A stretch of 53,129 nucleotides of DNA, taken from IMG/VR virus record IMGVR_UViG_3300013829_000009, positions 1 to 53,129 of that record; one strand, 5' to 3'. Shown piece after piece: positions 459 through 51,640 of the stretch; the first letter of the stretch is position 1, and each line of letters starts with the position of its first letter. This DNA comes from a virus. Taxonomy: Duplodnaviria; Caudoviricetes. The position numbers and the translations under genes were made by a program. The notes under the pieces were generated by a model. It saw only the letters and a list, made by a program, of their open reading frames with translations, was not told where the DNA came from and searched no databases.

Positions 459-491
459 TACTCTATACTGTTGGACAGAGGAGGTACTGCG

Positions 492-710
492 GTGGACATA
501 AGTTCAGAACTAAAAAAACTGAGAAGAAAAAGTCTATTAAGTCAAACCGATTTTGCCAAAGCAATCGGAGTGTCTTACTCCACGGTGAACCGATGGGAAA
601 ACGGGAAGGCTTTACCAAATTTTCAAACTTTGAAAAGAATCAAGGGCTTTTGTGAAGCAAACGATTATCCCTTTGATATTGACACAAAAATATGGGAGGA
701 AACAGAATGA
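492..710 (+). CDS. XRE-family HTH regulator (RM controller-like)
   Basis: [26 protein letters not shown]; GAGGAGG RBS before GTG 492; ATGA overlap with the methylase. Confidence 0.8.
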
Positions 711-1702
711 AAGTAATCAGCCTATTCAGTGGGTGCGGCGGTTTGGACCTTGGATTTGAGAGAGCAGGTTTTGAAATCCCCGTTGCAAATGAATTTGATA
801 AAACCATCTGGGAAACATTTGAAGCTAATCACCCTAACACCAAACTCATCCGTGGTGATATTCGCAACATACAGGAAGATGACTTTCCAGATGAAATAGA
901 TGGAATAATTGGTGGACCTCCCTGCCAGTCTTGGTCCGAAGCGGGTGCACTTCGAGGCATTGACGATGACCGCGGAAAGCTGTTTTTCGAATATATAAGA
1001 ATTCTCAAAAAGAAACAACCAAAGTTTTTCCTTGCAGAAAATGTTAGTGGCATGTTGTCTAATCGCCACTCAGATGCTGTAAAAAGCATTATTGCCATGT
1101 TTGAGGACTGCGGTTATGACGTAAGCATTACCATGGTAAATGCTAAAGACTATGGAGTCGCTCAAGAACGCAAGAGAGTGTTCTATATCGGGTTTAGAAA
1201 AGACCTTGGGATTAAGTTTGTTTTTCCGAAAGGCTCTACCGAAGATGACACCAAAAAAATCACTTTGCGAGATATCATCTGGGATTTGCAGGACACAGCA
1301 GTGCCAGCAGGAGACAAAAACCACCACAACCCATTGGCGGTAAATAACAATGAATATTTTACTGGCGCATATTCTACGATTTTTATGAGCAGAAATCGCG
1401 TCAAAGACTGGAATGAGCAAGCCTTTACGGTTCAAGCCTCCGGTCGCCAGTGCCAACTGCATCCACAGGCACCCAAAATGGACAAAGTAGGAAAGAACGA
1501 CTGTCGGTTTGTAGAAGGACAAGAAGCGTTATATCGTAGAATGACAGTTCGCGAAGTGGCAAGAGTTCAAGGCTTTCCAGACAATTTTGTTTTTATTTAT
1601 GACACAATCGACACAGGATATAAAATGATTGGTAATGCTGTGCCTGTTAACCTTGCATATGAGATAGCAACTGCTATCAAAAGAGCGTTAGAATCGAAAT
1701 AA
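707..1702 (+). CDS. C5-cytosine DNA methyltransferase, M.HaeIII-like (likely GGCC)
   Basis: Motifs [30 protein letters not shown]; [15 protein letters not shown]...[18 protein letters not shown] matches M.HaeIII as recalled. Confidence 0.92.
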
Positions 1703-1716
1703 GGACGAGCGCGATT

Positions 1717-1750
1717 AAAGGCGGAGAGGTTTTTAACCTCTCCGCCTTTT
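1717..1750. terminator. Bidirectional intrinsic terminator
   Basis: Perfect 15-bp stem AAAGGCGGAGAGGTT / AACCTCTCCGCCTTT between convergent genes. Confidence 0.85.
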
Positions 1751-1752
1751 CC

Positions 1753-2649
1753 TTAATCCAAAATAATATCCGGGTTTGTAACATTGCCACGATTTATGTC
1801 ATCTGTAGTTTTTATTCCAAGCGTTCTCATGGCGGCACTTAGACGGGCAAATACAGCATCTCCGCCCTGGAGCAAAGGAGTATTGTATCTCAATCTATAA
1901 TCAAGCATTCCGTCATGAGCGAACCAATCGACATATACAGCAAGTGGTCTATTCCCATCATATTTCTGTGCAATCGTGCGAAAGTTCAATGCCTTACACG
2001 CAAAATAAACCTGTGGATTGCAGTCAACATACGATTCAACTGATATGAGAGCATCGATGGCTTCTTGAGCTGTGTGAACAGGTCGATCTTCAAACAGAAT
2101 AAAATTGGATACCCCACTGTTTTCTATTACTTCACCATCCACGGTTGCATCGCGCTTATCCCCGACAAGATTTGTACCCGAATAGACATCGAGTACTTGC
2201 TCTCGCGATAAAAGCATATTCCCACTTAATTGACCACTCTCCACATTGAGCAACTCGAATTTCCAGCCGAGCGTAATTGCTCCCACTTCAGTACGACCAT
2301 ATCGAGACTTATAGATTAGTTTACGTGAAGCAAATTCTGTGCTCAGATTATTTGTGGCGGTCGAAATTATCCTTTGCCAATCCACACCAAAAAGTTGCTC
2401 GGCTCTTTCCGCATTGGTTTTATTCTCAAGAAAATCGGCATTGCTCTGTTTAAATGAGATTTTAAATTCCTTGACCCTGCGCTGTGAGTTCCGCGCCCCA
2501 ATAAATATATCTGTTTTCGGCTCACCTCTACTGCAAACGGGTTTACCAACCTTGATAACGGTATATTGTTCGCCACCGTAGTTAAAGAGAGTTCCAACCC
2601 GAAACAAATAAAGTACGTTGTGTTCGGATTCACCAAATAATTTTGCCAT
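1753..2649 (-). CDS. Putative type II restriction endonuclease (PD-(D/E)xK fold)
   Basis: GEPKTDIFI...FKISFK resembles the KTD...ISxK site of MspI/HinP1I-like enzymes; convergent with the C5 methylase. Confidence 0.6.
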   Translation of the reverse strand: MAKLFGESEHNVLYLFRVGTLFNYGGEQYTVIKVGKPVCSRGEPKTDIFIGARNSQRRVKEFKISFKQSNADFLENKTNAERAEQLFGVDWQRIISTATNNLSTEFASRKLIYKSRYGRTEVGAITLGWKFELLNVESGQLSGNMLLSREQVLDVYSGTNLVGDKRDATVDGEVIENSGVSNFILFEDRPVHTAQEAIDALISVESYVDCNPQVYFACKALNFRTIAQKYDGNRPLAVYVDWFAHDGMLDYRLRYNTPLLQGGDAVFARLSAAMRTLGIKTTDDINRGNVTNPDIILD

Positions 2650-2673
2650 ATTTACCCCCAATTTCTCACTATG

Positions 2674-3705
2674 TTATTTGTTTTCATGACTTTCTATCCA
2701 TTTGAGTAAGTAAGGTCTGTCATTGTTTGCGGCGGTTTCAAACCATTCACAACAGATGCGATATTGGTTACCACGAATGATTACTGGGTCTTTGTAATAA
2801 TGTAGTTCCGTATCGCGTTCATTTGTCCGAAGCAGTAACGGATACTGGAGGTTAAAGAACTGCTTGCTGTAATCGGTTTTTTGCATAAAGCCAACCTCGT
2901 CCTCTGAAGCGGCTCCGTCCTCAAGCATACGACGCAGAATGGTTCTCGCCAACTGCCCGATTTTCAGTTCCTTGTACGCACCTTCTTCTGCAATTGGTGC
3001 TCCATTTCCGACCGTTAATTTTCTCGGTGGACGCGCCTGCACTGTTTTGACAAATTCCGCAGGCGTATCCGAGAACATAGTAAACATCTGGTAGCTCCGA
3101 AGAAAAAGCTCGGTCGTGTCAGCAACGCCATCGCTCATGAGCAAGATAGGCTGAAGTACCGATTCATTGAATTCATCATTAGCAATTACCCGCAGCGTGA
3201 AATCGAACCCTCGCCCTGCGAGAAGCGTATTTGCATCTTCCATACATGGAGCAAGGTCATTAACAATGGCAGGGTTTATCTTCGGAGAAGCAAAGATGAT
3301 TTCTGCATCCTTCGAGTCCATGAAACCATAAAGGCACATCGTCGTTCGCAGGCTTTTGGAGATGACTTTCATTACGGTTTCGTCCCGAGAACCGTAGTTT
3401 AGCCCACTTTCGTGAAATGCAACATCGACGGCATAAAGATGGTTTCCGTCCTCTTGGATACTAATTCCGACAGCGTCGCATTCGCCCTGCTGGATGAGCT
3501 GCGATAGCGAACTGTTCTTTTTGAAAACCTTATATCCATATTTCGAATCAAAGAGCGTATCGGCTGCAACCATCAACGCTTCGAGCTCGTCCATGTGCTG
3601 AAGGGACCACTGCGGAGAAACTTTCCAGTTTGTTTGGACAACCTGACATTCTTTGACGTGTCGAAGCCACGAATAGAAAAGCGATTCACCCATTTCTATT
3701 TTCAT
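2674..3705 (-). CDS. Hypothetical protein, possible divergent restriction-endonuclease-like nuclease
   Basis: 343 aa; N-terminal E...ECD...AVDVAFH pattern; ATGA-coupled to the RloC-like gene. Confidence 0.55.
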   Translation of the reverse strand: MKIEMGESLFYSWLRHVKECQVVQTNWKVSPQWSLQHMDELEALMVAADTLFDSKYGYKVFKKNSSLSQLIQQGECDAVGISIQEDGNHLYAVDVAFHESGLNYGSRDETVMKVISKSLRTTMCLYGFMDSKDAEIIFASPKINPAIVNDLAPCMEDANTLLAGRGFDFTLRVIANDEFNESVLQPILLMSDGVADTTELFLRSYQMFTMFSDTPAEFVKTVQARPPRKLTVGNGAPIAEEGAYKELKIGQLARTILRRMLEDGAASEDEVGFMQKTDYSKQFFNLQYPLLLRTNERDTELHYYKDPVIIRGNQYRICCEWFETAANNDRPYLLKWIESHENK

Positions 3706-6002
3706 ACCGTTTTCTCCTCCATCATCATGTCGTAGTGTTGAATCTGGTCTAGGCAGTCAAAAATCATCTTGAATACCTCGCGGCACTGCGTGACATCGGT
3801 ACTCTCGTCAACAAAATCCATGCCATCGTTAAAGCCATGCTCCTGTTTGCCGATGTACGACAGCATCGACTGTGCCAGATGGAACTTGGTATCATCATCA
3901 GGGGTGTCATCACCGGATTTCACGATGAAGCAGTCTTTATGGTTTTCGAGAACCTCTTTACGAAGGTTTATTCCATCGTAACCGCAAAGCTGCAGGAAAT
4001 AATACTCAAGGATTCTGCGTATTACGCTCATCGTGGTAATAGAGCCGGACAGTTCTTTGAACTCGCTCCACAGAGCCTTATATGAGTTTTGAACCGGGTT
4101 GTAGTTCTCCATCGTGGGAGGCACCGTATTTCGGTTCTCCCTTACACAAGGTCTGACAGCAGATATGTTGTTCCGTTTCTGAATCAGATAATAGGAAACG
4201 AAATCGTATCTGCCGACCTGATTGTATGTAATCTCCCTATGGAAATAGGTGTTGTGGGTAAGAATGAATATCTGTGCGACCTCATCGCCTTTGAATGTGT
4301 GCGATTCCAAATTGACATTATTGTAGCAGATATCAATCAGTTCCCGAACCAGTGAACTGACGAGGAAAAGAACGCCGCTGTCCAAGCTGGACACTGGGTC
4401 GTCGATGACAACTATTTTCCGCTTCTTTTTCCCGGTTTCCTCATAACTGCCTCTGACCACATGATAGAAATAGAGGAAAGCGATAAAGTTGCGTTCGCCC
4501 TCGCTCAGATTCTTTGCGGGTTTATCACTGCCTTCGCGCCTTACCTCATAAACGTGTTCCTCGTTGGCTTTGGGATAAAGCATGAAGCCCTGCAGTCCGG
4601 CATCCCGCAAGGTTTTATTGACGGCATTTATCGTGGCAATCGTTCCTACACCATCTTTGTTAAGTTCGGTGAGCTCGCGGTCAAGTTCAACTGAGCGGTT
4701 ATGGTTTTTCGTGTAAGTGTCCAAAAAATCGTGGTATTCCTTGTCAATGGAACGGAAGCTGTCATTATACGCCTTTATGTCAGCAGCAAGGGTGAATGCG
4801 ATTAGTTCCTTCGTCTTCTTCTTGCACTCGGTCTGCTTGTCACCCCTTGAGGTAATAATTGCGTTATTCTCATCTATCTGGGTGTTAAAGGCATCAATAA
4901 TAGCGTTAATTTCATCACGAACCGTTTTCACATCATCCAGCACGGCGATGGAGGACGGTTCTTTTATTTTGTCCGCAATTTTCCGTATGTTGTTCTCAAC
5001 CGTTCTCTTGAATAGTTCCAGTTTTGTTTTGTACTCGGCAGTATCGATCTTCGGCAGAATATCGACCTGTAGGTTTGCTTCAAGGACGGTAATAAACCCA
5101 TTCATATCCGCAGTGTATGCTTCAAGAAGTCTTTGCAGATTGGCGACATCCTGCTGATATTGGGCATCAAAGCACGAAGCAATATCCGATTCAAAATCAG
5201 GAGGCAGCTCTTGTTGACAGTACGGACATTTACCTTTCGCTCCGGCGGTGTAGTGTTTGTGACCTTGATTAACCCAGTCAGCGGCATTGAGCGCGCTGAC
5301 AAATCTTGCAAACTCGGTATCACTGCTGCTTGTAATAGAAACGCCGAGCAGTTTGCACGTTTCTCCCATGCCAGCCAGCTGTGTAAACGCTCCCGTCTTG
5401 TTGATGCGAGGATAGCGTCTGCCGTTTGAACTGAAGGCTGTTTCGCACATAGTCTTTAGTTCATGCAAATCATGCTCAACGGGAGTCGCGCCTTTTAGAA
5501 CTTCCGTGGTGAATATATCCTTTGAGCGTTTATATCCTGCCATTGCATCGCTGAAAGCGGTGCGAAGTGCGGAACTGTGGCTCCAGCAAACGGTGCGAAA
5601 GTTCTCAAGCAGAGTATCAAGCTCGGATTTCTTTGCAGTTGCTGATGCTTGCGCTGAAGATGCCGCCGAATCGCAGTCCCGTTTTTCCGCTGTTCTTACA
5701 GCGATTTTCTCCTGTGTGTCGGCGTTTAACTCGCCAACGGTAAACACACCGCGCAGCTTTTCAAAACTGCGGAAATTCGCCTCGACATAATCGCGGTCAA
5801 AAACCAGCGTTTCATAATCGTCTGCGGGAACATCGGGATGCCAAGTCAGCCCTACTTTGTCGTGTATTGCTCTTGCGACAGTTGATTTGCCCGTGCCGTT
5901 ATTTCCGAAAAAGAAATTGATAAGGGTAGGCTCGATAAAAACACCGCTCAAGGTGGCATAGTTAATTTCAATTCGTTCTATTCCGTGCTTGATTTTTTCC
6001 AT
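3702..6002 (-). CDS. rloC: RloC-like ABC ATPase (AAA_13, zinc hook) with C-terminal HEPN anticodon-nuclease domain
   Basis: Walker A GNNGTGKST, coiled coil with CPYC zinc hook, LSEGE signature, Walker B VIDDPVSSLD, LTHN H-loop, RRILEYYF plus distal His. Confidence 0.8.
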   Translation of the reverse strand: MEKIKHGIERIEINYATLSGVFIEPTLINFFFGNNGTGKSTVARAIHDKVGLTWHPDVPADDYETLVFDRDYVEANFRSFEKLRGVFTVGELNADTQEKIAVRTAEKRDCDSAASSAQASATAKKSELDTLLENFRTVCWSHSSALRTAFSDAMAGYKRSKDIFTTEVLKGATPVEHDLHELKTMCETAFSSNGRRYPRINKTGAFTQLAGMGETCKLLGVSITSSSDTEFARFVSALNAADWVNQGHKHYTAGAKGKCPYCQQELPPDFESDIASCFDAQYQQDVANLQRLLEAYTADMNGFITVLEANLQVDILPKIDTAEYKTKLELFKRTVENNIRKIADKIKEPSSIAVLDDVKTVRDEINAIIDAFNTQIDENNAIITSRGDKQTECKKKTKELIAFTLAADIKAYNDSFRSIDKEYHDFLDTYTKNHNRSVELDRELTELNKDGVGTIATINAVNKTLRDAGLQGFMLYPKANEEHVYEVRREGSDKPAKNLSEGERNFIAFLYFYHVVRGSYEETGKKKRKIVVIDDPVSSLDSGVLFLVSSLVRELIDICYNNVNLESHTFKGDEVAQIFILTHNTYFHREITYNQVGRYDFVSYYLIQKRNNISAVRPCVRENRNTVPPTMENYNPVQNSYKALWSEFKELSGSITTMSVIRRILEYYFLQLCGYDGINLRKEVLENHKDCFIVKSGDDTPDDDTKFHLAQSMLSYIGKQEHGFNDGMDFVDESTDVTQCREVFKMIFDCLDQIQHYDMMMEEKTV

Positions 6003-6038
6003 AGTGCCACCTCCTGTGTCGGTACTATTTTGTGTTTT

Positions 6039-6239
6039 TTAGTCTTTAATTTTTCCTTTGCGGACCCATTCGTCCACCTCGGATATTTTGAATTTGTATC
6101 GTTTTCCGGCTCGGTACACCGGGAGTTTGCCTTCGCGAACCCATGTGCGGACTGTATCCTGACTTAAGCTGAGATGCTCGGCAATGTCCTCAAGGTTAAC
6201 CCATTTCTCCGGCATTTCGTTAATCGTTTCTTTCTCCAT
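6039..6239 (-). CDS. Excisionase-like (HTH_17/MerR-type) DNA-binding protein
   Basis: WVNLEDIAEHLSLSQDTVRTWVREGKLP...GKRYKFK...VDEW. Confidence 0.85.
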   Translation of the reverse strand: MEKETINEMPEKWVNLEDIAEHLSLSQDTVRTWVREGKLPVYRAGKRYKFKISEVDEWVRKGKIKD

Positions 6240-6256
6240 GTTTCGCCTCCGTGTAA

Positions 6257-6913
6257 TTAGAATAAGTCGATGTGTGCATCCGATAGCTCCTCAAAAAGAT
6301 TTACTCTTTTTATAGCCCAGTGTGTGCGGTTGAGTTCATTGAAGCAGCTTGCTCCTATTAGGCAAAGCTCTTCCAGAAGCCCATTTAACTTCTGCTGGGG
6401 TATTTCTTTTATAAAACGATATCTGATTTTAATATCCTTCCCGTGAGGGCTGATGCCGATTACGCGACCCCAGTATGCCATTTGACCCTCGTCCGCTTGT
6501 CCGTAGTCACGGTTTTCTCCCATAAACAGCGCAGGATACGATTTTATGGTTTCTCTGTCAGCTTCGGTCATATAGATGAAAGCGTCTCGAATTTCTTTGT
6601 CTGTATATCCTCTTTCGAGAACACGGTCACCACGGACAAGAAAGCTGCCTTCGACGCCTTCAAAAGGTTCAGCGGTGCCGAGAACAAACAGGCTGTAATA
6701 TTCACTGGAAAGCTTGGTACTTGTTCTCTGAATTGTTCCGTCGGGTTTGATTGTTGATGAATCAAAAACCCTGACATGGATTTCATTGTTTACGGTTTCC
6801 GCATGACCTATTTGCGTACCGTTATTTCCCGTCTGGGTGAATGACATCGGGACGGCAGGTTTACTGCCTGTTACGATATCTGAGGATTGAACGGGCTTTA
6901 TTTCATTACTCAT
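6257..6913 (-). CDS. Hypothetical protein with N-terminal RHIM/BASS-like motif and a globular C-terminal domain
   Basis: 218 aa; FTQTGNNGTQIG near the N-terminus; RBS present; 14 bp after the upstream gene. Confidence 0.8.
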   Translation of the reverse strand: MSNEIKPVQSSDIVTGSKPAVPMSFTQTGNNGTQIGHAETVNNEIHVRVFDSSTIKPDGTIQRTSTKLSSEYYSLFVLGTAEPFEGVEGSFLVRGDRVLERGYTDKEIRDAFIYMTEADRETIKSYPALFMGENRDYGQADEGQMAYWGRVIGISPHGKDIKIRYRFIKEIPQQKLNGLLEELCLIGASCFNELNRTHWAIKRVNLFEELSDAHIDLF

Positions 6914-6927
6914 ATTATCTGCCCTCC

Positions 6928-7776
6928 TCAGTCGCCGTGTTTTATGGTCAAGGTTCCGACACTTCCGATTTGGGTACTGTTGTTACCGTTCTGGATAAAA
7001 ACCATCTGATTATTACCCATTTGCTTTGCACCCTGCTTTTGGCTGTCGGACTGTTCTTCGGTAGCATCCTCAATGACCGTTTCCGCATATTCGGATGTGG
7101 TCTCCTCAGAATCCGCCGATGTGGTTGCCTGTACGGAACAGTTCTTCACCGTCAGCTTTTGCGTGAATCCGGCAGTTGGCTGCCAATTTTCAATGGTACT
7201 GCGCCCGATAGTATTGTCGGGACGGTTTTGCAAAATATAGTGCCAAATGCCTACCAGAAAAGCCTGTAGGCAAAAAGCCGTTGATGCCGTCAGTGTTTCC
7301 TTTGAAACGGCGGTGCCGTCTTCAAGAGCAAAAAACTCCGTATCAGCTTCAACGGATGCGTCTTTTGAAATAATCTCGATGAGTGCCTCAACAAGGTACT
7401 CATCTTTTTTTGTGTCCGTTTCCGTATCGAGATAAGTATCCGTGAATGAAAACATGCGGGAAAGCACTGCCCGATAGTCCGTTCTTACACACTCATCAAA
7501 AGCACGGGCTTCTGCGGTCCCATTGAGAGGAAGATGTGCGCCGGCACTCTTTCGGCAGTTCTTATATGAAGATGTATTTTCTTTGAAGGTCTTTCCTGCG
7601 GGAACAGTGTAGTTCGGATAGATAACCCTTATTAGGTCTGCGAATGCTTCCGGGTCGGAAAGCCCATCACTTTCGCTCATATAATGCTCCCGAACTCCGG
7701 CTCTCTGTTTGCGGGCATCAAGCAAATATGTAAAAAACACGCCTCCGCACAGGCGCGGGTAGTCGTTGATTGACAT
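6928..7776 (-). CDS. Hypothetical protein with acidic linker and C-terminal RHIM/BASS-like motif
   Basis: GGAGG RBS before ATG 7776; ends FIQNGNNSTQIGSVGTLTIKHGD. Confidence 0.8.
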   Translation of the reverse strand: MSINDYPRLCGGVFFTYLLDARKQRAGVREHYMSESDGLSDPEAFADLIRVIYPNYTVPAGKTFKENTSSYKNCRKSAGAHLPLNGTAEARAFDECVRTDYRAVLSRMFSFTDTYLDTETDTKKDEYLVEALIEIISKDASVEADTEFFALEDGTAVSKETLTASTAFCLQAFLVGIWHYILQNRPDNTIGRSTIENWQPTAGFTQKLTVKNCSVQATTSADSEETTSEYAETVIEDATEEQSDSQKQGAKQMGNNQMVFIQNGNNSTQIGSVGTLTIKHGD

Positions 7777-8058
7777 ATGTTTCCTCCATAGACAAAGTAA
7801 TATCGCTACTAACGCTAATATCTTTGCTAACCATAGCGCTCTAACTCTATTAACTATTGGATTGCTCTTGTGAGGTTCACAGGAGCAATTTTCCCTTTGG
7901 TAAATGGTTTGCCGCAAAGAAGTAATCCACAACAAATCATACTAAACCAGTATATCACACTTTTATGTAAAACACAATGGGACGAGCATAACTTGTGTAA
8001 AAGTTCATGAAAATTTTCTCCTGTGATTCTCACAAATCAAATCTAAGGAGAAAAAATC

Positions 8059-8631
8059 ATGAAAAACTATCAGAAACTTCACTACGAACACTATTACCGC
8101 ATGGTTTCCAGTGGCGAGACGGTCGAATGCACCCGGCAGGAGTGCTTCGCCCCGGCAGAAACGCCCACGGCGGACAACCCCTTCGTTCAACGCTGGTACT
8201 ACAGCCCCGACCGAGAGATGGCGATACGCCTCCCCAGAAACACGATGGGTGACGATACCCACAAGGCAAACGCCGCCGACCTTAAGAGCCAGGAACGCTG
8301 GACAGCGAGAGCCGTCAAGCACGGCGACCTCGAAATCGATAAGCCAATGTCCCGCACCGATGATGGCGAGGAGAGCGGTTTCGACATCCCTGACGACGAG
8401 GACGGCCCCGTTGAGTTCCTTATAAAAAAGGAAACCGTCACATCCATTCGCATCGCTGTTGACGCCCTTACCCATGAAGAGCGGTATCTGTGGGACGAGC
8501 TTCTGAGCGACAAGACAAAGGCAAAAATCGCGGAGGAATGCGGTCTGAGCGAGGGCGCTATCCGCAAGCGTGTAAAGAAACTCGTACAGACTCTCCGTGA
8601 AAATCCCGCTCTCAAAAACTATTTCGAATAA
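8059..8631 (+). CDS. Sigma-70 region 4-like HTH protein (phage sigma factor/regulator)
   Basis: IRIAVDALTHEERYLW...KTKAKIAEECGLSEGAIRKRVKK; AAGGAG RBS. Confidence 0.75.
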   Translation: MKNYQKLHYEHYYRMVSSGETVECTRQECFAPAETPTADNPFVQRWYYSPDREMAIRLPRNTMGDDTHKANAADLKSQERWTARAVKHGDLEIDKPMSRTDDGEESGFDIPDDEDGPVEFLIKKETVTSIRIAVDALTHEERYLWDELLSDKTKAKIAEECGLSEGAIRKRVKKLVQTLRENPALKNYFE

Positions 8632-8643
8632 TTTCTGCGTTTC

Positions 8644-8701
8644 GGTACGGTTTCCCTCTCTGCCTGTCCTGTACGAGGTGGAGAGGGACAAAACCTCTCA
8701 C
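8644..8701 (+). promoter_or_regulatory. Bipartite repeated element, copy 1 (GGTACGGTTT-N11-TGTCCTGTACGAGGTG plus hairpin)
   Basis: Identical blocks and spacing at 13581 and 45382; lies upstream of an RBS. Confidence 0.8.
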
Positions 8702-8725: not shown

Positions 8726-9052
8726 ATGACAATCACCGAAATCGGGAACGAACTGGTCAACATCGCGGAAACCCTGGCGCGTGTAATCTCGGAACTCACC
8801 TCGCTGGCTGGCAGCGTGACGAAGCTGAGTTCGGCGCTTAAGGCTTACGAGGTTGGCAGTCCCGCTCCCAAAGCACCTCAGAAGAAGACCCCGGAGCTTG
8901 CCGAAGTCCGAGCTCTGCTGGCGGAAGTATCCCGCGGCGGAAAAACGGCGGAGGTAAAGAAGCTGCTTGAAAGCCACGGCTGTGAAAAGCTGTCCGAGGT
9001 CGAAAGTGAGTTCTATGAGGAACTCATGGAGGAAGCGAGGGCGCTGTTATGA
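8726..9052 (+). CDS. Conserved phage hypothetical protein
   Basis: GGAGG RBS; LAEVRALLAEVSRGGKTAEVKKLL...KLSEV domain typical upstream of DUF2800. Confidence 0.75.
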   Translation: MTITEIGNELVNIAETLARVISELTSLAGSVTKLSSALKAYEVGSPAPKAPQKKTPELAEVRALLAEVSRGGKTAEVKKLLESHGCEKLSEVESEFYEELMEEARALL

Positions 9053-9567
9053 ATGACGAACATTGGCTCTCGATAGCAGGCTGGGATGGCTTGTATGAGG
9101 TGTCAAACCACGGGCACATAAAGAGTTTGGAGCGAAAAATAACAGCGGGTTCAAGAACCTATGTGATTCACGAAAGAATTCTAAGTCCAAGGCGTGACAA
9201 GGACGGATACATGATGGTGGATCTTCAGAACGCCGGAAAAGTTATTACTCACAAGGTTCATCGCATTGTCGCTATGACTTTTCTCCAAAACCCCTGTAAC
9301 AAGCCGCAGGTTAACCACAAGGATGGTAACAGAGCTAATAACACCGTTCAAAATCTGGAATGGGTAACTGATTCGGAAAACAAAATTCACAGCCATACGA
9401 AACTCCAGACATCTCGCGGGAAATCGGGTTTATATGGTGTCAACTGGCGATCTGACAGGGGTAAGTGGCGCGCCTATACAACGCTTGGCGGTTATAGGCA
9501 CATAGGTTTATTCAATGATAAAGAAGAAGCCAGAAAAGCGGCAGAGAAAGCAAGGTGCTTATTGTGA
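9049..9567 (+). CDS. NUMOD4-HNH homing endonuclease (AP2-like C-terminus)
   Basis: W..IAGWDGLYEVSNHG.IKS; VHRIVA; VNHKDGNRANN...NLEW; GVNWRSDRGKWRAY. Confidence 0.88.
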   Translation: MNDEHWLSIAGWDGLYEVSNHGHIKSLERKITAGSRTYVIHERILSPRRDKDGYMMVDLQNAGKVITHKVHRIVAMTFLQNPCNKPQVNHKDGNRANNTVQNLEWVTDSENKIHSHTKLQTSRGKSGLYGVNWRSDRGKWRAYTTLGGYRHIGLFNDKEEARKAAEKARCLL

Positions 9568-44549: not shown

Positions 44550-45263
44550 ATGAACCTGCACAAACTCATTTTGACTAACAACGCCTGCTACAAAGCGGGT
44601 AAAACCATCACACCGAAAGGCATCATGGTACATTCCACCGGGGCGAACAACCCCAACCTCAAACGCTATGTGGGCCCCGACGACGGTCTGCTGGGCAAGA
44701 ACCAGTACAACAACCACTGGAATCAAGACAAGCCCGATGGCAGGCAGGTCTGCGTTCACGGTTTCATAGGCAAGTTGGCTGACGGAAGCATAGCCACTTA
44801 TCAAACCCTACCGTGGAATCATAGAGGCTGGCATGCTGGAGGTGCAGCGAACGATACGCATATCGGCTTTGAAATCTGTGAGGATGGTCTGACCGATGCC
44901 TCGTATTTTTCTGCCGTTTACAAGGAAGCCGTGGAGCTTTGCATATATCTCTGCAAGCAATACGGACTTACGGAGAAAAACATAATCTGTCACTCTGAGG
45001 GTTATAAGCTGGGAATCGCCAGCAACCACGGCGACGTCATGCACTGGTTTCCGAAACATGGAAAGTCGATGGATACCTTCCGTGCTGCTGTAAAGGTTGG
45101 ACTGGCTGCAACGGAAGCACCCGCTCCCGTCACACCGACCACACCAAAAAAATATTACCGTGTGCAGGTCGGTGCGTATTCCGTTAAGTCAAACGCAGAC
45201 GCCATGCTTGCTAAGATTAAGGCAGCTGGCTTTACTGATGCTTTTGTAAAGTACAGCGAATAA
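44550..45263 (+). CDS. Endolysin: Amidase_2 plus SPOR domain
   Basis: IMVHSTG; GWHAG; IGFEICE; ICHSE; NHGD; YRVQVGAYSVK.NA. Confidence 0.92.
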   Translation: MNLHKLILTNNACYKAGKTITPKGIMVHSTGANNPNLKRYVGPDDGLLGKNQYNNHWNQDKPDGRQVCVHGFIGKLADGSIATYQTLPWNHRGWHAGGAANDTHIGFEICEDGLTDASYFSAVYKEAVELCIYLCKQYGLTEKNIICHSEGYKLGIASNHGDVMHWFPKHGKSMDTFRAAVKVGLAATEAPAPVTPTTPKKYYRVQVGAYSVKSNADAMLAKIKAAGFTDAFVKYSE

Positions 45264-46079: not shown

Positions 46080-47384
46080 ATGGAAAAGCAGATTATTGAC
46101 ATTACGCCAACCCGCACAGCCTTTACCGTTAAGAAGCGTGTGGCGGCTTATGCAAGAGTGTCCTGCGACAAGGACACTATGCTCCACTCTCTGGCTGCGC
46201 AGATTGACTATTACCGCAAATATATCATCCGTAATCCCGAATGGGAATTTGTCGGAGTGTATGCAGATGAGGCGAAAACGGGAACGAAGGAAGACAGAGA
46301 GCAGTTTCAGAAGCTACTCTCTGATTGCCGTTCGGGACTTATCGATATGGTGGTCACGAAGTCAATTTCCCGCTTTGCGAGAAATACGGTCACACTGCTC
46401 GGCACGGTGCGGGAACTCAAGGAACTCGGCATCAACATCTTTTTTGAAGAACAGAATATCAATTCAGTCAGCGAAGAGGGAGAATTGATGCTCACCCTTT
46501 TGGCATCCCAGGCGCAGGAAGAAAGCCTCTCATGCAGTGAAAACTGCAAGTGGAAGATTCGCAAGGGCTTTGAGCGCGGTCAGCCCAACACCTGCACCAT
46601 GCTCGGTTACCGTCTCGTAAACGGCGAAATAACGCTTGTGCCGGACGAAGCGGAAATCGTAAAGGAAATCTATGACCTTTACCTTTCCGGCTTCGGCGTT
46701 CAGAAGATTGCCAATACACTGAACGAGCGGGGTGTCCGCACTGAAAAGATACCATACTGGCATCCCGATACCATCCGAAACATTCTGCGAAACGAGAAGT
46801 ATATGGGCGATTTGCTCCTGCAAAAATCCCTAAGCGAAAGCCACCTCACAAAACGCCAAGTCAAAAATGAAGGACAGCTTCAGCAATTTTATATTACCGA
46901 TGACCATGAACCGATAGTGTCCAGAGCTGTTTTCTCCGAAGCGCAGTGCGAGGTTCAGCGCCGTGCCGAGAAGCATAAATACGGTAATGGCGCAAAGAGC
47001 ATCTTCACGGGAAAAATCCGATGCGGTATCTGCGGTAAGAACTACAGACGCAAGACTACGCCCTACAACACGGTCTGGTGCTGTTCCACCTTTAATACCC
47101 GTGGGAAAGCATATTGCTCCTCCAAGGTCATCCCGGAAAACACCCTCAAGGATTGTATTTCGGACGCTCTTGGTAGTAAGTACTTTGCAGAAGATTTCTT
47201 TACGGAAACGGTGGACTTCATCGTTGCAGAACCTTGTAATACTATGCGGTTGATTTTCAAGGACGGCACGGAAAAGAGAATTACATGGCAAGACCGCTCA
47301 CGCTCCGAAAGCTGGACAGACGAGATGCGTGAGGCGGCGAGACAAAAACAGCTTGAAAGGAACGGTGCAAAAAATGAGCAATAA
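46080..47384 (+). CDS. Large serine recombinase 1
   Basis: AAYARVS; TKSISRFARN; ILRNEKYMG; CGICG zinc ribbon. Confidence 0.93.
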   Translation: MEKQIIDITPTRTAFTVKKRVAAYARVSCDKDTMLHSLAAQIDYYRKYIIRNPEWEFVGVYADEAKTGTKEDREQFQKLLSDCRSGLIDMVVTKSISRFARNTVTLLGTVRELKELGINIFFEEQNINSVSEEGELMLTLLASQAQEESLSCSENCKWKIRKGFERGQPNTCTMLGYRLVNGEITLVPDEAEIVKEIYDLYLSGFGVQKIANTLNERGVRTEKIPYWHPDTIRNILRNEKYMGDLLLQKSLSESHLTKRQVKNEGQLQQFYITDDHEPIVSRAVFSEAQCEVQRRAEKHKYGNGAKSIFTGKIRCGICGKNYRRKTTPYNTVWCCSTFNTRGKAYCSSKVIPENTLKDCISDALGSKYFAEDFFTETVDFIVAEPCNTMRLIFKDGTEKRITWQDRSRSESWTDEMREAARQKQLERNGAKNEQ

Positions 47385-49023
47385 GAATGTCACGGTCATA
47401 CCCGCTAAACCGACAGGGTTCATGCAAGGACTGCCAGGTTTGCTAAAAAAGCGAAGGGTGGCGGGATACGCTCGTGTTTCCACGGACAAAGATGAACAGC
47501 AGAACAGCTACGAAGCGCAGGTGGAATATTACACCGACTATATTAAGCGAAACCCAGAATGGGAGTTCGTGGAGGTGTATACCGATGAAGGTATTAGCGG
47601 CACCAGCACCAAGCACCGCGAGGGCTTTAAGCGTATGATTACCGACGCTCTGGACGGTAAAATCGACCTCATCCTCACAAAATCGGTCAGCCGTTTCGCC
47701 AGAAATACGGTCGACAGCCTAACCACCATACGACAGCTAAAGGACAAAGGCACGGAGGTATATTTCGAGAAGGAGAACATTTTTACGATGGATTCCAAGG
47801 GAGAGCTGCTCCTCACCATCATGTCGAGCCTCGCGCAGGAAGAGTCCCGATCTATTTCAAAGAACATCACCTGGGGCAAACGCAAGAGTATGGCAGACGG
47901 CAAGGTGTCCTTCGCCTACAGTTCCTTTCTCGGTTACGATATGGGTGCTGACGGTCATTTATATATAGTAGAAGACCAAGCGAAAATCGTCCACAGAATC
48001 TACGATGAGTTTCTTGCCGGAAAAACCACCTATGACATCGCCGTAAGGCTCACCGAAGACGGTATTCCGACTCCGATGAACAAGGTAAAGTGGCAGGCCT
48101 CCACGGTAAGAAACATACTGCAAAATGTTAAATATCGCGGGGATTCCATTTTGCAGCAATATTTTGTGGAGGATTTTTTAACTAAAAAAATCAAGAAAAA
48201 CACGGGTGAATTGCCCCTTTACTATGTTTCACAAAACCATCCGCCAATCATCCCGCCAGAGAAATTCGAGATGGTGCAGGAGGAGTTCCGCAGACGTAAG
48301 GAAGGTGGTCCGTACACCTGTATTTCGCCCTTTTCCGGCAGAATCGTATGTGGGAACTGTGGAGGTTTCTACGGCAGAAAGGTATGGCACAGCGGCAGCT
48401 CTTACCAGTCTTTCGTCTGGCACTGCAACAATAAATTTACCAAGCGGAAATACTGCTCTACGCCGTCCGTAAAGGAAGACGCCATCATGAAATGCTTTGT
48501 GGATGCTTTCAACAGTCTAATTGCGAAAAAGGATGAGATTGCCCGGAACTACGAGGAGTGCCTTGCCGCCATAACCGATGATGAGGAATATAAACGCAGG
48601 CTTGCCGAAGTCGAGGAACTCTGTGCGGGGCTTGCGGCAAGGATGCACGACAACCTTACCAGGGAGAGCCGCATGATGGATGACTGCAGCGAGGACAGCC
48701 CGCTCAAAAAAGAGCGTGATGAAATAACCGCCGAGTATGAAGCTTTGCAGAAGGAACAGCAGGAGTTGAACTCCAAGATTGCCCTCTGCGCCGCTAAGAA
48801 GGTGCAGGTACGCGGTTTCCTCCAGCTTTTGAAAAAGCAGAAAAAAGCACTGTCGGAGTTCGACCCGCTCGTATGGCAGGCTGCGGTTCACTACATGGTT
48901 ATCAACGAGGACTGCACAGTGAAATTTGTATTCCGTGACGGCACCGAACTGCCCTGGGTGATAGACCCCGGCGTCAAGTCCTATAAAAAAAGAAAGCCGG
49001 TTAAATCATGCCCACAAGAATAA
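47374..49023 (+). CDS. Large serine recombinase 2
   Basis: AGYARVST; TKSVSRFARN; CGNCG; coiled coil. Confidence 0.93.
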   Translation: MSNKNVTVIPAKPTGFMQGLPGLLKKRRVAGYARVSTDKDEQQNSYEAQVEYYTDYIKRNPEWEFVEVYTDEGISGTSTKHREGFKRMITDALDGKIDLILTKSVSRFARNTVDSLTTIRQLKDKGTEVYFEKENIFTMDSKGELLLTIMSSLAQEESRSISKNITWGKRKSMADGKVSFAYSSFLGYDMGADGHLYIVEDQAKIVHRIYDEFLAGKTTYDIAVRLTEDGIPTPMNKVKWQASTVRNILQNVKYRGDSILQQYFVEDFLTKKIKKNTGELPLYYVSQNHPPIIPPEKFEMVQEEFRRRKEGGPYTCISPFSGRIVCGNCGGFYGRKVWHSGSSYQSFVWHCNNKFTKRKYCSTPSVKEDAIMKCFVDAFNSLIAKKDEIARNYEECLAAITDDEEYKRRLAEVEELCAGLAARMHDNLTRESRMMDDCSEDSPLKKERDEITAEYEALQKEQQELNSKIALCAAKKVQVRGFLQLLKKQKKALSEFDPLVWQAAVHYMVINEDCTVKFVFRDGTELPWVIDPGVKSYKKRKPVKSCPQE

Positions 49024-50369
49024 TTCTTCCTAAGTCCGAAAAGCCAGAGAAAAAGCGGATAGCAGCATACTGCCGGGTATCGTCTTCCAGCGAGGAGCAG
49101 ATCCACAGCTATGTAGCACAGGTCAAATTCTACACCGAAATGCTCTCTGCCGATAAGTCCTGCGAGTTTGTCGGCGTGTATGCCGATGAGGGCATAACCG
49201 GCACCTCGGCGAAAAAACGCCCACAGTTCATGGCAATGATTGAGGACTGCCGTGCCGGAAAAATAGATGCCATCATAACAAAGAGCGTGTCCAGATTCGG
49301 TCGCAACACCGTGGACACGCTTTCCTATACCCGTGAACTAAAAGCACTCGGGATTGATGTATATTTTGAGAAGGAAAACCTGCATTCCATCAGTCCGGAC
49401 GGAGAACTGCTGCTTACGCTTATGGCGGCGTTTGCCGAGTCTGAGTCGGTATCAATGTCTGAGAACATTTCGTGGGGATTCCGTAAAAGGTATGCCGAGG
49501 GGGACCTGCGGAGCCTTCCAATTCACAACCTCTATGGTTTAGATAGAAATGCCAAGGGCGAGATTGTTATCCAAGAGGAAGAAGCCAAGATTGTGCGCAG
49601 AATATATGATGAGTTTCTTGCGGGGCAAAACACTCAGTTCATCTCAGATATGCTCAATGCTGATGGTGTTCCCGCGCGGCATAAGGGCGCTATCTGGTAC
49701 AACAAAACAGTAATCAACATTTTGCAGAACGAGAAGTACGCTGGAGATGTACTTTTCCAGAAGACTTTCAGTCCGGGGCCGTTGTCCAAGTGTGTTAAGA
49801 ACCGTGGAGAGCTTCCTCAATATTGGTTGGAAGATGCCTTCTCCGCAATAATCGATAAAAAGCTTTGGCGGGTCACGCAATATGAGTATCGGCGTAGAGC
49901 CAAGAAAACTATGATAAACCAATGCCCTGAGCATCCTTTCATAGGCAGATTCTACTGCGGACTATGCGGCAGACCCGTCATCCAATACTCCAGCCGTGGC
50001 ACAGGCGGAATAATGAATATCTGGTGGCGTTGTGCCACAAAGATAACCCGTTACAAAAAAGCAGATGATAAAACGCACGAAGAGGTGCGTGTTTCTTTCG
50101 GTAGGCCGGAGCAAGTGTTCAAGCAGGCGTGGAATCTGATTATAAGTAAGAAGCCAATGTACATCGCAAGGGTGAAAAAGGTCGCGGAAACGGATGAGAG
50201 CGAACTGACCCGTTACCACGCATCCGAGATGCTCCGTCTAATGGACGAGATGGGTAAAATTACAGAATTCGATTATATGCTCTCTATTAAGGTTCTCGAC
50301 CGCATGGAACTGATGTCGGAGAACAAGCTGGCTGTAGTATTCCTTTCCGGGATACGCATTACAATATAA
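49008..50369 (+). CDS. Large serine recombinase 3
   Basis: AAYCRVSS; TKSVSRFGRN; ILQNEKYAG; CGLCG. Confidence 0.92.
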   Translation: MPTRIILPKSEKPEKKRIAAYCRVSSSSEEQIHSYVAQVKFYTEMLSADKSCEFVGVYADEGITGTSAKKRPQFMAMIEDCRAGKIDAIITKSVSRFGRNTVDTLSYTRELKALGIDVYFEKENLHSISPDGELLLTLMAAFAESESVSMSENISWGFRKRYAEGDLRSLPIHNLYGLDRNAKGEIVIQEEEAKIVRRIYDEFLAGQNTQFISDMLNADGVPARHKGAIWYNKTVINILQNEKYAGDVLFQKTFSPGPLSKCVKNRGELPQYWLEDAFSAIIDKKLWRVTQYEYRRRAKKTMINQCPEHPFIGRFYCGLCGRPVIQYSSRGTGGIMNIWWRCATKITRYKKADDKTHEEVRVSFGRPEQVFKQAWNLIISKKPMYIARVKKVAETDESELTRYHASEMLRLMDEMGKITEFDYMLSIKVLDRMELMSENKLAVVFLSGIRITI

Positions 50370-51625: not shown

Positions 51626-51640
51626 GATAGTTTACCTTTC

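What the first reader, a model, noticed from the sequence alone, without database searches (positions are those of the whole stretch)
6257..7776. Candidate amyloid (RHIM/BASS-like) signalling gene pair heading a prophage defence operon
Seen: the upstream gene (7776-6928) ends, after a long acidic/polar linker, in FIQNGNNSTQIGSVGTLTI (~6999-6943). The next gene, 14 bp downstream (6913-6257), carries FTQTGNNGTQIGHAETVNN (~6841-6785) near its N-terminus. The shared consensus is FxQxGNNxTQIGxxxT, and I see no other similarity between the two proteins. Established: a shared Q/N/G-rich motif at the C-terminus of one protein and the N-terminus of the adjacent gene's product is the layout of fungal HET-s/PP and bacterial BASS amyloid signalling pairs, and QIG echoes the RHIM core (I/V)Q(I/V)G. 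Inference: this is a templated-amyloid switch whose partners are neither an NLR nor a Bell/HeLo domain. One partner may be a DNA-binding regulator divergent from the phage sigma-like gene and the other a sensor. It could control abortive infection through the downstream RloC/nucleases, or the lysis-lysogeny decision, since no classic CI repressor is visible.
Basis: partly seen in the sequence, partly recalled or inferred. Interest (0 to 1): 0.9.

Follow-up and report, generated by a model that had tools for sequence, protein, structure and literature searches.

The report
Phage amyloid-like sensor-effector signalling pair
Two neighbouring phage genes share a short, co-evolving asparagine/glutamine-rich tag that most likely lets a small sensor protein switch on a cell-killing effector, a new Firmicute version of the amyloid signalling recently shown in bacterial antiphage defence.

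Summary
Gene A (7776-6928, 282 aa) ends in, and gene B (6913-6257, 218 aa) begins with, a roughly 20-residue N/Q/G-rich motif. They share 11 of 19 residues, and 0 of 2000 shuffles reach the score.

- **Conservation and co-variation.** The motif is kept at the same termini in homologues. Across 38 non-redundant gene pairs the own-partner score averages 51.4 against 32.0 for non-partners (0 of 10000 permutations reach it).
- **Loss in fusions.** The motif is absent where A's and B's globular domains are fused into one protein.
- **A's globular domain.** It is an unannotated all-alpha fold. It also sits at the N-terminus of NACHT+SNaCT14 NLR-like proteins. In three viral loci, A pairs through the same kind of motif with a NACHT protein.
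- **B's globular domain.** Elsewhere it is fused to TIR, bSEFIR-like or kinase domains.

A-B therefore has the anatomy of a BASS/HET-s-type effector-sensor pair, carried by Bacillota phages and mobile elements. Amyloid formation itself is untested.

The concept is already known (BASS motifs; E. coli Bab/Agp, 2024 preprint). I rate this a new variant with a new effector, sensor, motif family and phylum.

The parts
6928..7776 (-). Gene A (282 aa, P0001): effector-side protein made of a globular domain, an acidic linker and a C-terminal motif
   Evidence: ORF and translation. There are 113 homologues and 1239 representative clusters at E<=0.001. Pfam, PHROGs, NCBIfam and PADLOC give no family.
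7162..7776 (-). A_N: all-alpha globular domain (about residues 1-205), the putative effector or adaptor
   Evidence: The AF2 model is mostly confident up to about residue 210 (10-residue block means 60-96, most above 85) and has 9 helices. Foldseek finds no match in PDB or BFVD. The same domain lies at the N-terminus of NACHT+SNaCT14 proteins.
7006..7161 (-). Acidic/polar disordered linker of A (about residues 206-257)
   Evidence: pLDDT is below 50 from residue 217. Across homologues the linkers are 21% D+E with a median length near 60 aa.
6943..7005 (-). A-side motif MVFIQNGNNSTQIGSVGTLTI (residues 258-278)
   Evidence: It is conserved at the extreme C-terminus: 53 of 56 motif-HMM hits lie within 15 residues of the end.
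6914..6927 (-). 14-nt A-B spacer with a GGAGGG ribosome-binding site
   Evidence: Read directly from the sequence.
6257..6913 (-). Gene B (218 aa, P0002): sensor-side protein made of an N-terminal motif and a globular domain
   Evidence: There are 69 homologues. No library gives a family hit.
6785..6847 (-). B-side motif MSFTQTGNNGTQIGHAETVNN (residues 23-43)
   Evidence: It is conserved in the B family. pLDDT is below 50 for residues 1-43.
6260..6742 (-). B_C: beta-rich globular domain (about residues 58-218), the putative sensor
   Evidence: The AF2 model has pLDDT near 90. Only weak Lon-N-terminal-like Foldseek hits appear (E 0.04). Elsewhere the domain is fused to TIR, SEFIR/TIR (bSEFIR-like), a protein kinase or an AbiEi_4 wHTH.
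6039..6239 (-). HTH_17 / MAD1-like small DNA-binding gene that usually follows B
   Evidence: Pfam HTH_17 6e-14 and PADLOC mad1 1.3e-12. It follows 47 of 59 distinct A-B pairs. Whether it belongs to the system is open.
3702..6002 (-). AAA_13 (RloC-like, PADLOC PDC-S06) ATPase: a frequent downstream neighbour, possibly a separate cargo
   Evidence: Pfam AAA_13 1.6e-121 and PDC-S06 6e-204. A homologue follows 44 of 59 distinct pairs.

Best explanation
A and B form a two-gene immune relay carried by temperate phages and integrative elements of Bacillota.

1. B is the sensor. Its globular domain (B_C) detects an unknown cue, most likely from an infecting phage or another invader, and clusters.
2. 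Clustering makes B's disordered N-terminal N/Q/G-rich motif fold into a beta structure.
3. That structure recruits and templates the matching motif at the end of A's flexible acidic tail.
4. This brings together and activates A's all-alpha domain (A_N), which then arrests or kills the cell (abortive infection or superinfection exclusion).

Shown: the motif pair, its partner-specific co-evolution, its loss in fused forms, and the company both domains keep (NACHT; TIR, bSEFIR-like and kinase domains).

Inferred: the direction of signalling, the oligomerisation step, the amyloid (cross-beta, templated) nature of the contact, and what A_N does to the cell.
For: **1. The motif is real and conserved.**
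- 11/19 identity in the window, and 0 of 2000 shuffles reach the score.
- It sits at A's C-terminus and B's N-terminus throughout both families.

**2. Gene linkage.**
- B-seeded search: 140 A-then-B same-strand pairs in 179 sources.
- A-seeded search: 67 of 80 viral loci have B directly downstream.

**3. Co-variation.**
- In 38 non-redundant pairs the own-partner score averages 51.4 against 32.0 for non-partners. 0 of 10000 permutations reach this, and composition shuffles give 22.8 +/- 4.9.
- At least 8 motif classes changed on both sides. Examples are IPNYGT, IYNIE with G-to-A on both sides in Streptococcus, ISGGNN, NQYGEKN.HI and NNYGKGVQ.

**4. Rosetta-stone fusions.** 10 of the best 150 A_N representatives are A_N+B_C fusions. 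The two I read in full, P0173 and L084, lack both motifs.

**5. NLR connection.**
- A_N is the N-terminal domain of NACHT+SNaCT14 proteins (7 of 8 'longer' hits; Pfam).
- In L209, L230 and L231, A is followed by a protein whose N-terminus carries a motif matching A's tail. Pfam finds NACHT+SNaCT14 in the two I scanned, L209 and L231. The L230 gene is cut by the contig end and has the same N-terminus.
- N-terminal position is where bacterial NACHT proteins carry effectors (passages of 10.1101/2022.07.19.500537).

**6. B_C fusions.** B_C is fused to TIR, bSEFIR-like and Stk2/mad6-like kinase domains. I interpret these as outputs activated by proximity.

**7. Amyloid-signalling-like properties.**
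- N is enriched 3.9x and Q 3.0x, with T, V, I and G also enriched. K, L and R are depleted. This agrees with the BASS description (section 9 of 10.1101/2020.01.06.895854).
- Both motifs are low-confidence in monomer models.
- Many A tails carry NG[IV]QIG, the G-phi-Q-phi-G core described for PP/RHIM (passage of PMC7885112).

**8. One effector, two sensors.** L085 and L087 have one A and two B paralogues, each with an A-like head.

**9. Experimental precedent.** E. coli Bab/Agp is an amyloid-signalling abortive-infection pair with a non-NLR sensor in a prophage defence island (10.1101/2024.11.07.622273, sections 3 and 10).
Against: - There is no experiment or amyloid predictor behind 'amyloid'. 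Co-variation and loss in fusions show only that the motifs work together, not how.
- Pfam finds no RHIM or any other family in the motif peptides at E up to 10.
- P is not depleted in the motif (ratio 0.96), unlike the BASS description.
- A_N has no recognisable killing activity. It has no Bell/HeLo hit, its most hydrophobic 19-mer scores only 1.44 on Kyte-Doolittle, and Foldseek finds nothing.
- B_C's fold assignment is weak (E 0.04, TM about 0.25), and its trigger is unknown.
- The pairs are related by descent, so the permutation count overstates independence. I count about 8-10 independent class changes by eye.
- The A-B-HTH-AAA_13 order recurs in 38 of 59 distinct pairs and in Streptococcus phage Javan105. 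A and B may therefore not act alone.
- No defence phenotype has been measured for any member.
Confidence: 0.6

Rival explanations
1. The matched motifs are an ordinary, non-amyloid docking device, such as a beta-zipper or strand complementation. It holds A and B in a stable heteromer, so A-B is simply a split two-subunit protein with no templating or switch.
For: - Co-variation, tight linkage and loss of the motifs in the two fused forms I read are exactly what a plain heterodimerisation tag would also give.
- No amyloid evidence exists.
- Pfam finds no RHIM in the peptides.
Against: - The composition (N 3.9x, Q 3.0x, K/L/R depleted), the roughly 20-residue length, the predicted disorder and the long flexible acidic tether are those described for amyloid signalling motifs.
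- The same kind of motif pairs A with NACHT proteins, the classical amyloid-signalling layout.
- One A serves two B paralogues.
- An experimentally proven analogue exists.
Confidence: 0.25
2. A and B are accessory or regulatory subunits of the downstream AAA_13 (RloC-like, PDC-S06) ATPase system rather than a self-contained sensor-effector pair.
For: - An AAA_13 homologue lies within 1.8 kb downstream of 44 of 59 distinct pairs, and both the HTH and AAA_13 genes in 38 of 59.
- The order A-B-HTH-RloC is also found in Streptococcus phage Javan105, at about 30% A identity.
- No terminator-like site lies between A's stop and the AAA_13 start on the coding strand.
Against: - 15 of 59 pairs are followed by other cargo, including an SNF2 helicase, type I RM genes and choline-binding proteins.
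- A_N-NACHT fusions occupy the same slot in viral contigs. The large downstream ORFs listed for them are far shorter than AAA_13, but I did not search them for it.
- A_N and B_C each occur with other immune modules, and I did not look for AAA_13 beside those forms.
- The shared synteny extends to the whole phage backbone (PolA, SSB, DUF2800), so it may be inherited rather than functional.
Confidence: 0.12
3. A-B is a regulatory switch of the mobile element itself (lysis-lysogeny, excision or transfer), possibly bistable through prion-like templating, standing in for a CI-type repressor.
For: - A-B always sits at the head of the operon transcribed away from the element's replication genes. This holds in Clostridia phages (sigma-like gene, DUF2800, Enc34 SSB, PolA) and in Streptococcus elements (RepB-like, FtsK-like).
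- An excisionase-type HTH follows B in 47 of 59 pairs.
Against: - Neither A nor B has a DNA-binding signature.
- Their domains are fused to NACHT, TIR, bSEFIR-like and defence-type kinase modules.
- The phage has a Cro/C1-type HTH gene at 471-710.
- The slot next to lysogeny genes is a usual place for defence cargo (my own knowledge, e.g. lambda rexAB).
Confidence: 0.05
4. The two motifs do not touch each other. Each is a tag for a common third factor (protease, chaperone, membrane site), or the similarity is a chance low-complexity match.
For: N/Q-rich low-complexity segments are common, and complex prediction gave no usable answer (listed only under Tried and rejected).
Against: - Chance is excluded.
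- A common third factor does not explain lineage-specific changes matched on both sides.
- It also does not explain why the two fused forms I read lack both tags.
Confidence: 0.03

Closest known systems
Bab/Agp (BASS11) antiphage abortive-infection system of E. coli ECOR25 (Ibarlosa et al. 2024, bioRxiv 10.1101/2024.11.07.622273; I read the abstract, section 3 parts 1-2, section 10 and some passages)
   Same: - Adjacent collinear genes.
- A small alpha-helical effector with a C-terminal motif of about 20 residues.
- A non-NLR sensor with the matching N-terminal motif.
- Location in a prophage defence island of a unicellular bacterium.
- The motif family also occurs with NACHT and TIR partners.
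   Different: - The effector here is about 205 aa with no Bell/HeLo match, against a roughly 85-aa Bell-like domain in Bab.
[quoted passage not shown]
- The hosts are Bacillota phages and integrative elements.
- I could not compare the motif sequence with BASS11, because its sequence and profile are in figures and supplements I could not see.
- Nothing here is experimentally tested.
BASS1-10 Bell/NLR gene pairs of multicellular bacteria (Dyrka et al. 2020, bioRxiv 10.1101/2020.01.06.895854; I read the abstract, sections 5, 7 and 9, and some passages)
   Same: - A shared motif at the effector's C-terminus and the receptor's N-terminus.
- Short or overlapping intergenic distance.
- N/Q/G/V/I-rich and K/L-poor composition.
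- The effector domain is also found 'all-in-one' with the NOD module.
- Some relatives (L209, L230, L231) pair with a NACHT-type protein.
   Different: - In this window the receptor is not an NLR.
- The effector is not Bell.
- Hosts are unicellular Firmicutes and their phages, a phylum where that paper reports NLR-like architectures and Bell as rare or absent.
- P is not depleted in the motif.
Fungal HET-S/NWD2 and PP-motif (HELLP) pairs, and metazoan RHIM
   Same: - A templated motif links receptor and executioner.
- The G-phi-Q-phi-G core described for PP/RHIM (passage of PMC7885112) appears as G-T-Q-I-G in B and as NG[IV]QIG in many A homologues.
   Different: - Pfam finds no RHIM family in the peptides.
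- Many motif classes of this family lack that core altogether, for example IPNYGT, IYNIE and ISGGNN.
- I saw no pseudo-repeat of the motif on the effector side.
Bacterial NACHT (bNACHT) antiphage NLR-related proteins with SNaCT C-terminal domains (Kibby et al., bioRxiv 10.1101/2022.07.19.500537; passages only)
   Same: A_N occupies the N-terminal 'effector' position of NACHT+SNaCT14 proteins. Six of these fusions are in viral contigs.
   Different: - The window's system has no NTPase at all.
- The effector is delivered in trans through the motif.
Effector-associated domains (EADs) and bacterial Death-like adaptor domains (Kaur et al. 2020 and 2021; seen only in a search listing, and as cited; the content is recalled)
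   Same: The same logic applies: a module shared by an effector and a sensor encoded side by side couples them by homotypic contact.
   Different: As I recall them, EADs and Death-like modules are folded helical domains. Here the shared element is a roughly 20-residue segment that is predicted disordered and beta-prone.

Membership tests
Amyloid signalling motif pair (BASS/FASS type, operational definition of Dyrka et al. 2020) | The same short motif at the C-terminus of one protein and the N-terminus of the product of the adjacent collinear gene | tested here: met
   The arrangement is conserved: 140 pairs in 179 sources and 67 of 80 A-seeded loci.
Amyloid signalling motif pair (BASS/FASS type) | The receptor-side partner is an NLR (NB-ARC or NACHT) | tested here: not met
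   B has no NTPase domain. Relatives do meet this feature. In L209 and L231 the partner is NACHT+SNaCT14 with a matching N-terminal motif, and L230's partner, cut by the contig end, has the same N-terminus. Bab/Agp shows that an NLR is not obligatory.
Amyloid signalling motif pair (BASS/FASS type) | About 20-25 residues, rich in N/Q/G/V/I, poor in K/P/L, beta-prone | tested here: met
   The core spans about 17-22 aligned columns. N is enriched 3.9x, Q 3.0x and T/V/I/G 1.4-1.5x, while K and L are at 0.31x. P is at 0.96x and so is not depleted.
Amyloid signalling motif pair (BASS/FASS type) | The effector domain also occurs fused directly to the receptor module ('all-in-one') | tested here: met
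   A_N-NACHT-SNaCT14 fusions and A_N-B_C fusions.
Amyloid signalling motif pair (BASS/FASS type) | The motif forms amyloid fibrils or behaves as a prion, and the receptor side templates the effector side | not testable with these tools
   This needs ThT/EM/ssNMR and in-vivo reporters. No amyloid predictor (ArchCandy, ASMscan) was available.
BASS1-11 sequence families | A match to one of the published motif profiles | not testable with these tools
   The profiles and logos are in figures and supplements that are not held. Only a few BASS11 positions are named in the text.
RHIM (Pfam RHIM family) | A significant match to the Pfam RHIM model | tested here: not met
   A Pfam-A scan of four motif peptides at E up to 10 returned no family. 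The whole proteins gave no such hit at E up to 0.1.
RHIM / PP core | [quoted passage not shown] | tested here: inconclusive
   B has G-T-Q-I-G, the window's A has S-T-Q-I-G, and many A homologues have G-[IV]-Q-I-G. Several motif classes lack the core.
Bell / HeLo / Hell membrane-targeting executioner domains | Sequence or fold similarity to these helical bundles | tested here: not met
   There is no Pfam hit, no Foldseek hit in PDB or BFVD and no PDB sequence hit. A_N does begin with a conserved Gly-containing hydrophobic helix (LCGG.FF..LL), which is a lead only.
N-terminal effector/adaptor domains of bacterial NACHT NLR-related proteins | [quoted passage not shown] | tested here: met
   P0184-P0190 carry A_N at residues 1 to about 200. 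Pfam places NACHT from about residue 305-345 and SNaCT14 at the C-terminus in the four I scanned: P0184, P0186, P0187 and P0190. Further examples are L224, L249-L251, L255 and L257.
PADLOC known or candidate defence systems | A or B matches a PADLOC model | tested here: not met
   There are 0 families for A and B and 0 for the A_N-B_C fusion P0173. Only the neighbours match (mad1, PDC-S06, REase_II, MTase_II).

The most novel reading that the evidence does not exclude
The motif may be a fast-diversifying, partner-matched amyloid 'address code'. Dozens of mutually non-matching classes would let one effector domain be wired in trans to interchangeable sensors (the B_C domain, one or two copies, or a NACHT NLR). 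They would also keep co-resident phage-borne immune relays insulated from each other and from decoy motifs of rival phages. On this reading, templated-amyloid signalling is a common, modular wiring principle of mobile-element immunity in gut and oral Firmicutes, not a rarity of multicellular bacteria.
Probability: 0.35. Interest if true: 0.85.

Novelty: new variant of a known kind. Interest (0 to 1): 0.7.

Why it matters
Amyloid signalling between an immune sensor and a death effector has been shown in fungi, animals and, in the literature I found, one E. coli system (Bab/Agp). In bacteria it was first thought to be tied to NLRs and Bell domains of multicellular species.

This family would extend it in several ways:
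- It reaches temperate phages and integrative elements of Clostridia and streptococci.
- It brings two previously unannotated domains: an effector that also heads NACHT proteins, and a small sensor that also drives TIR, SEFIR and kinase outputs.
- It brings a large natural set of matched motif variants.

That set is a ready-made experiment on how about 20 residues encode partner specificity in templated folding. It also gives an uncharacterised NACHT N-terminal domain a handle for functional study.

Tried and rejected
**Complex prediction** on A residues 232-282 with B residues 1-62, each with its own alignment: no verdict (score 0.01, mark 0.32). This is neither for nor against binding.

**Fold and structure searches**
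- B in PDB: only weak Lon-N-terminal-like rows, best E 0.039.
- A in PDB and BFVD: nothing at E<=0.001.
- PDB sequence profiles for both: nothing meaningful.
- ESM Atlas look-ups: unnamed viral clusters for B, nothing usable for A.

**Other negative or uninformative results**
- Pfam on the motif peptides: no family.
- Promoter and terminator scan of 1500-8700: counts no higher than in shuffles, so I make no operon claim from it beyond the short gaps.

**Readings considered and set aside**
- 'DNA-binding regulator' for A or B: no HTH signal.
- 'Lysogeny switch': the domains keep immune company, and an XRE-type HTH exists at 471-710.
- 'A-B is specific to RloC': other cargo follows 15 of 59 pairs.
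- P0183 and P0164 (A_N joined to McrB-like EVE/AAA_5 sequence): I read these as probable deletion chimeras, not an architecture.

**Literature.** I found no paper describing this family in searches.
Full report
**What is there.**
On the minus strand, gene A (7776..6928, 282 aa) and gene B (6913..6257, 218 aa) are separated by 14 nt that contain a GGAGGG.
- A ends ...MVFIQNGNNSTQIGSVGTLTIKHGD.
- B begins ...PMSFTQTGNNGTQIGHAETVNN.

BLASTP finds only this similarity between the two proteins: 11/19 identical, E 8e-4. The ungapped score of A's tail against B's head is 54, compared with 22.5 +/- 4.3 for shuffles, and 0 of 2000 shuffles reach it.

The window is a complete IMG/VR virus record. Downstream on the same strand lie:
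- an HTH_17/MAD1-like gene;
- an AAA_13 (RloC-like, PADLOC PDC-S06) gene;
- an unknown 343-aa gene;
- a type II restriction enzyme, with a C5 methylase opposite.

Neither A nor B matches any model in Pfam, PHROGs, NCBIfam or PADLOC.

**The motif is conserved and the genes are linked.**
A has 113 homologues and B has 69 in the 90%-clustered protein collection. A profile of A finds 1239 representative clusters at E<=0.001.

In both families the N/Q/G-rich segment keeps its place at A's extreme C-terminus, after an acidic linker, and near B's N-terminus. Its sequence falls into many variant forms.

| Search | Sources | Result |
|---|---|---|
| B-seeded (genome, viral and metagenome collections) | 179, including the window | 140 A-then-B same-strand pairs |
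| A-seeded (viral contigs) | 80 loci | 67 have B directly downstream |

In the B-seeded search, 43 B_C ORFs had no A. Most of these were cut by a contig end or were B_C fused to other domains. GenBank phages that carry the pair annotate both genes as hypothetical proteins.

**The two motifs co-evolve.**
The data reduce to 96 distinct pairs, and then to 38 that are non-redundant (A tails at most 75% identical).
- The own-partner score averages 51.4, against 32.0 for non-partners.
- None of 10000 partner permutations reaches the observed mean.
- Composition-preserving shuffles give 22.8 +/- 4.9.
- The true partner is the single best-scoring B for 12 of 38 A tails, and is in the top three for 22 of 38.

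A's tail and B's head are related like old paralogues. Independent drift would therefore not make a tail more like its own partner than like other heads, so the excess means concerted change.

By eye there are at least eight classes in which both sides changed together:
- ..IPNYGT..
- ..IYNIE.., with the otherwise near-invariant G replaced by A on both sides in Streptococcus
- ISGGNN..H.D
- NSG.NG.QI.N
- NQYGN..TQI..V..Y
- NQYGEKN.HI
- NNYGKGVQ
- N.G.V.NQK.I.I..M.G

The pairs are related by descent, so the permutation count overstates independence. The class count is the safer number.

**Fusions say the motifs exist to join A and B.**
Ten of the best 150 A_N representatives carry both globular domains in one chain. 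The two I read in full, P0173 (445 aa) and the 580-aa protein of L084, have different linkers and neither has the motif. This argues against a tag for a third factor.

**Both globular domains keep immune company.**
- *A_N fused to NLR-like proteins.* The all-alpha domain A_N is mostly confident in the AF2 model up to about residue 210 and has no fold match. It is the N-terminal domain of NACHT+SNaCT14 proteins in 7 of the 8 'longer' hits. Pfam confirmed this on four of them. Six more fusions are in viral contigs.
- *Meaning of that position.* The N-terminus is where bacterial NACHT proteins carry effector or adaptor domains (passages of 10.1101/2022.07.19.500537).
- *A paired with NACHT in trans.* In L209, L230 and L231 a normal A is followed by a protein whose N-terminus carries a motif matching A's tail. 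Pfam finds NACHT+SNaCT14 in L209 and L231. L230's gene is cut by the contig end. This is the classical effector-motif plus motif-NLR layout. That motif class is also used by a B subfamily.
- *B_C fusions.* B_C is beta-rich, with pLDDT near 90 and only weak Lon-N-like fold hits. Elsewhere it is fused to TIR, to a bSEFIR-like SEFIR/TIR, to a Stk2/mad6-like protein kinase, or follows an AbiEi_4 wHTH. All of these outputs, like an amyloid nucleus, are of the kind switched on by clustering. That is my inference for what B_C does.
- *One A, two B.* In L085 and L087 one A is followed by two B paralogues, each with a head resembling A's tail.

**Is it amyloid?**
This cannot be tested here. The following points are consistent with it:
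- the length, with a core of about 17-22 aligned columns;
- the composition: N 3.9x, Q 3.0x, T/V/I/G up, K/L/R down, matching section 9 of the BASS paper;
- low model confidence for both motifs in the monomers;
- the flexible acidic tether;
- a G-phi-Q-phi-G-like core in B and in many A homologues.

Against it, or at least not for it:
- no Pfam RHIM match;
- P is not depleted;
- many classes lack the RHIM-like core.

**What is already known.**
BASS motifs were defined on Bell/NLR pairs of multicellular bacteria. That paper reports such architectures as rare or absent in Firmicutes. A 2024 preprint shows experimentally that E. coli Bab/Agp is an amyloid-signalling abortive-infection system. It pairs a Bell-like effector with a non-NLR TPR-GreA/B-C-PIN sensor through the BASS11 motif, and it sits in a prophage defence island. 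A 2026 review still lists only these bacterial cases.

The principle, and even the 'non-NLR sensor in a prophage of a unicellular host' setting, is therefore known. The new elements are the effector domain, the sensor domain, the motif family with its many matched classes, the phylum and the carriage by phages and integrative elements. My searches found no description of this family. The supplements were closed.

A-B heads the operon transcribed away from the replication genes:
- in Clostridia phages these are a sigma-like gene, DUF2800, Enc34 SSB and PolA;
- in Streptococcus integrative elements they are RepB-like and FtsK-like genes.

Downstream, among 59 distinct pairs with enough sequence, an HTH_17 gene follows in 47, an AAA_13 gene in 44, and both in 38. 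The rest have an SNF2 helicase, type I RM or other cargo. A functional tie to the RloC-like gene is therefore possible but not required.

No DNA-binding signature was found in A or B. The phage has an XRE-type HTH at 471-710 and three large serine recombinases at 46080-50369. I therefore give the lysogeny-switch reading a low probability.

**Verdict.**
- Best explanation: a phage-borne sensor (B) to effector (A) relay coupled by a BASS-like motif, confidence 0.6.
- Main rival: a non-amyloid docking tag, 0.25.
- Novelty: new variant of a known kind.
- Interest: 0.7.

Noticed in passing
window 471-710 (+), overlapping the start of the C5 methylase at 692-1702: A 79-aa Cro/C1-type (HTH_3) protein lies directly upstream of, and overlaps, the methylase gene. 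It looks like a restriction-modification controller (C) protein. It is also the only XRE-type HTH found among the 31 small ORFs I scanned.
   Followed up: partly
window 46080-50369 (+): Three consecutive large serine recombinase genes (434, 564 and 453 aa; Resolvase + Recombinase + Zn_ribbon_recom) sit at the right end of the phage, after the amidase at 44550-45263.
   Followed up: partly
P0162, P0204, P0267 (A homologues); L024:6004-7200: Some A proteins carry an FHA domain after the motif, so the motif is internal. One B_C protein is fused to a Ser/Thr kinase. This hints at a phospho-dependent variant of the relay.
   Followed up: no
P0213 (873 aa), P0261 (764 aa): Here A_N is fused to an NTPase with a GxGGxGKT Walker A that looks NB-ARC-like by eye (not scanned with Pfam). 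In P0213 a truncated motif (..VFNQYGNNNTQV..) remains between the two parts, as if a two-gene system had recently been fused.
   Followed up: no
L085 and L087, 3523-5666: One A is followed by two tandem B paralogues (196 and 225 aa) and then an AAA_13 gene. Each B head resembles a different part of A's tail.
   Followed up: partly
P0183 (860 aa), P0164 (275 aa): A_N is joined abruptly to McrB-like sequence (EVE + AAA_5, or only its last residues). These are probably deletion chimeras between A and downstream defence cargo, or assembly artefacts.
   Followed up: no
P0192, P0201, P0205, P0228, P0252, P0275, P0321: These A homologues are 427-464 aa and carry an extra domain of about 150-200 residues between A_N and the C-terminal motif. 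L084's fusion protein has a similar insert. The motif stays at the very end.
   Followed up: no
window 9049-9567 (+): A NUMOD4 + HNH_3 + AP2 homing-endonuclease-like gene lies between the early genes and the DUF2800/SSB/PolA replication module.
   Followed up: no
window 50432-52282 (-): An SPFH/Band-7 protein with a SHOCT tail (397 aa) and a YbjQ-like protein (213 aa) lie on the opposite strand beyond the recombinases. They are possibly host flank or further cargo.
   Followed up: no
L016, L017 (record titles name Prevotella): Two A-B loci lie on short contigs binned to Prevotella, while all other A-B loci in genome contigs are Bacillota. This could be mis-binning or a phage with a different host.
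   Followed up: no
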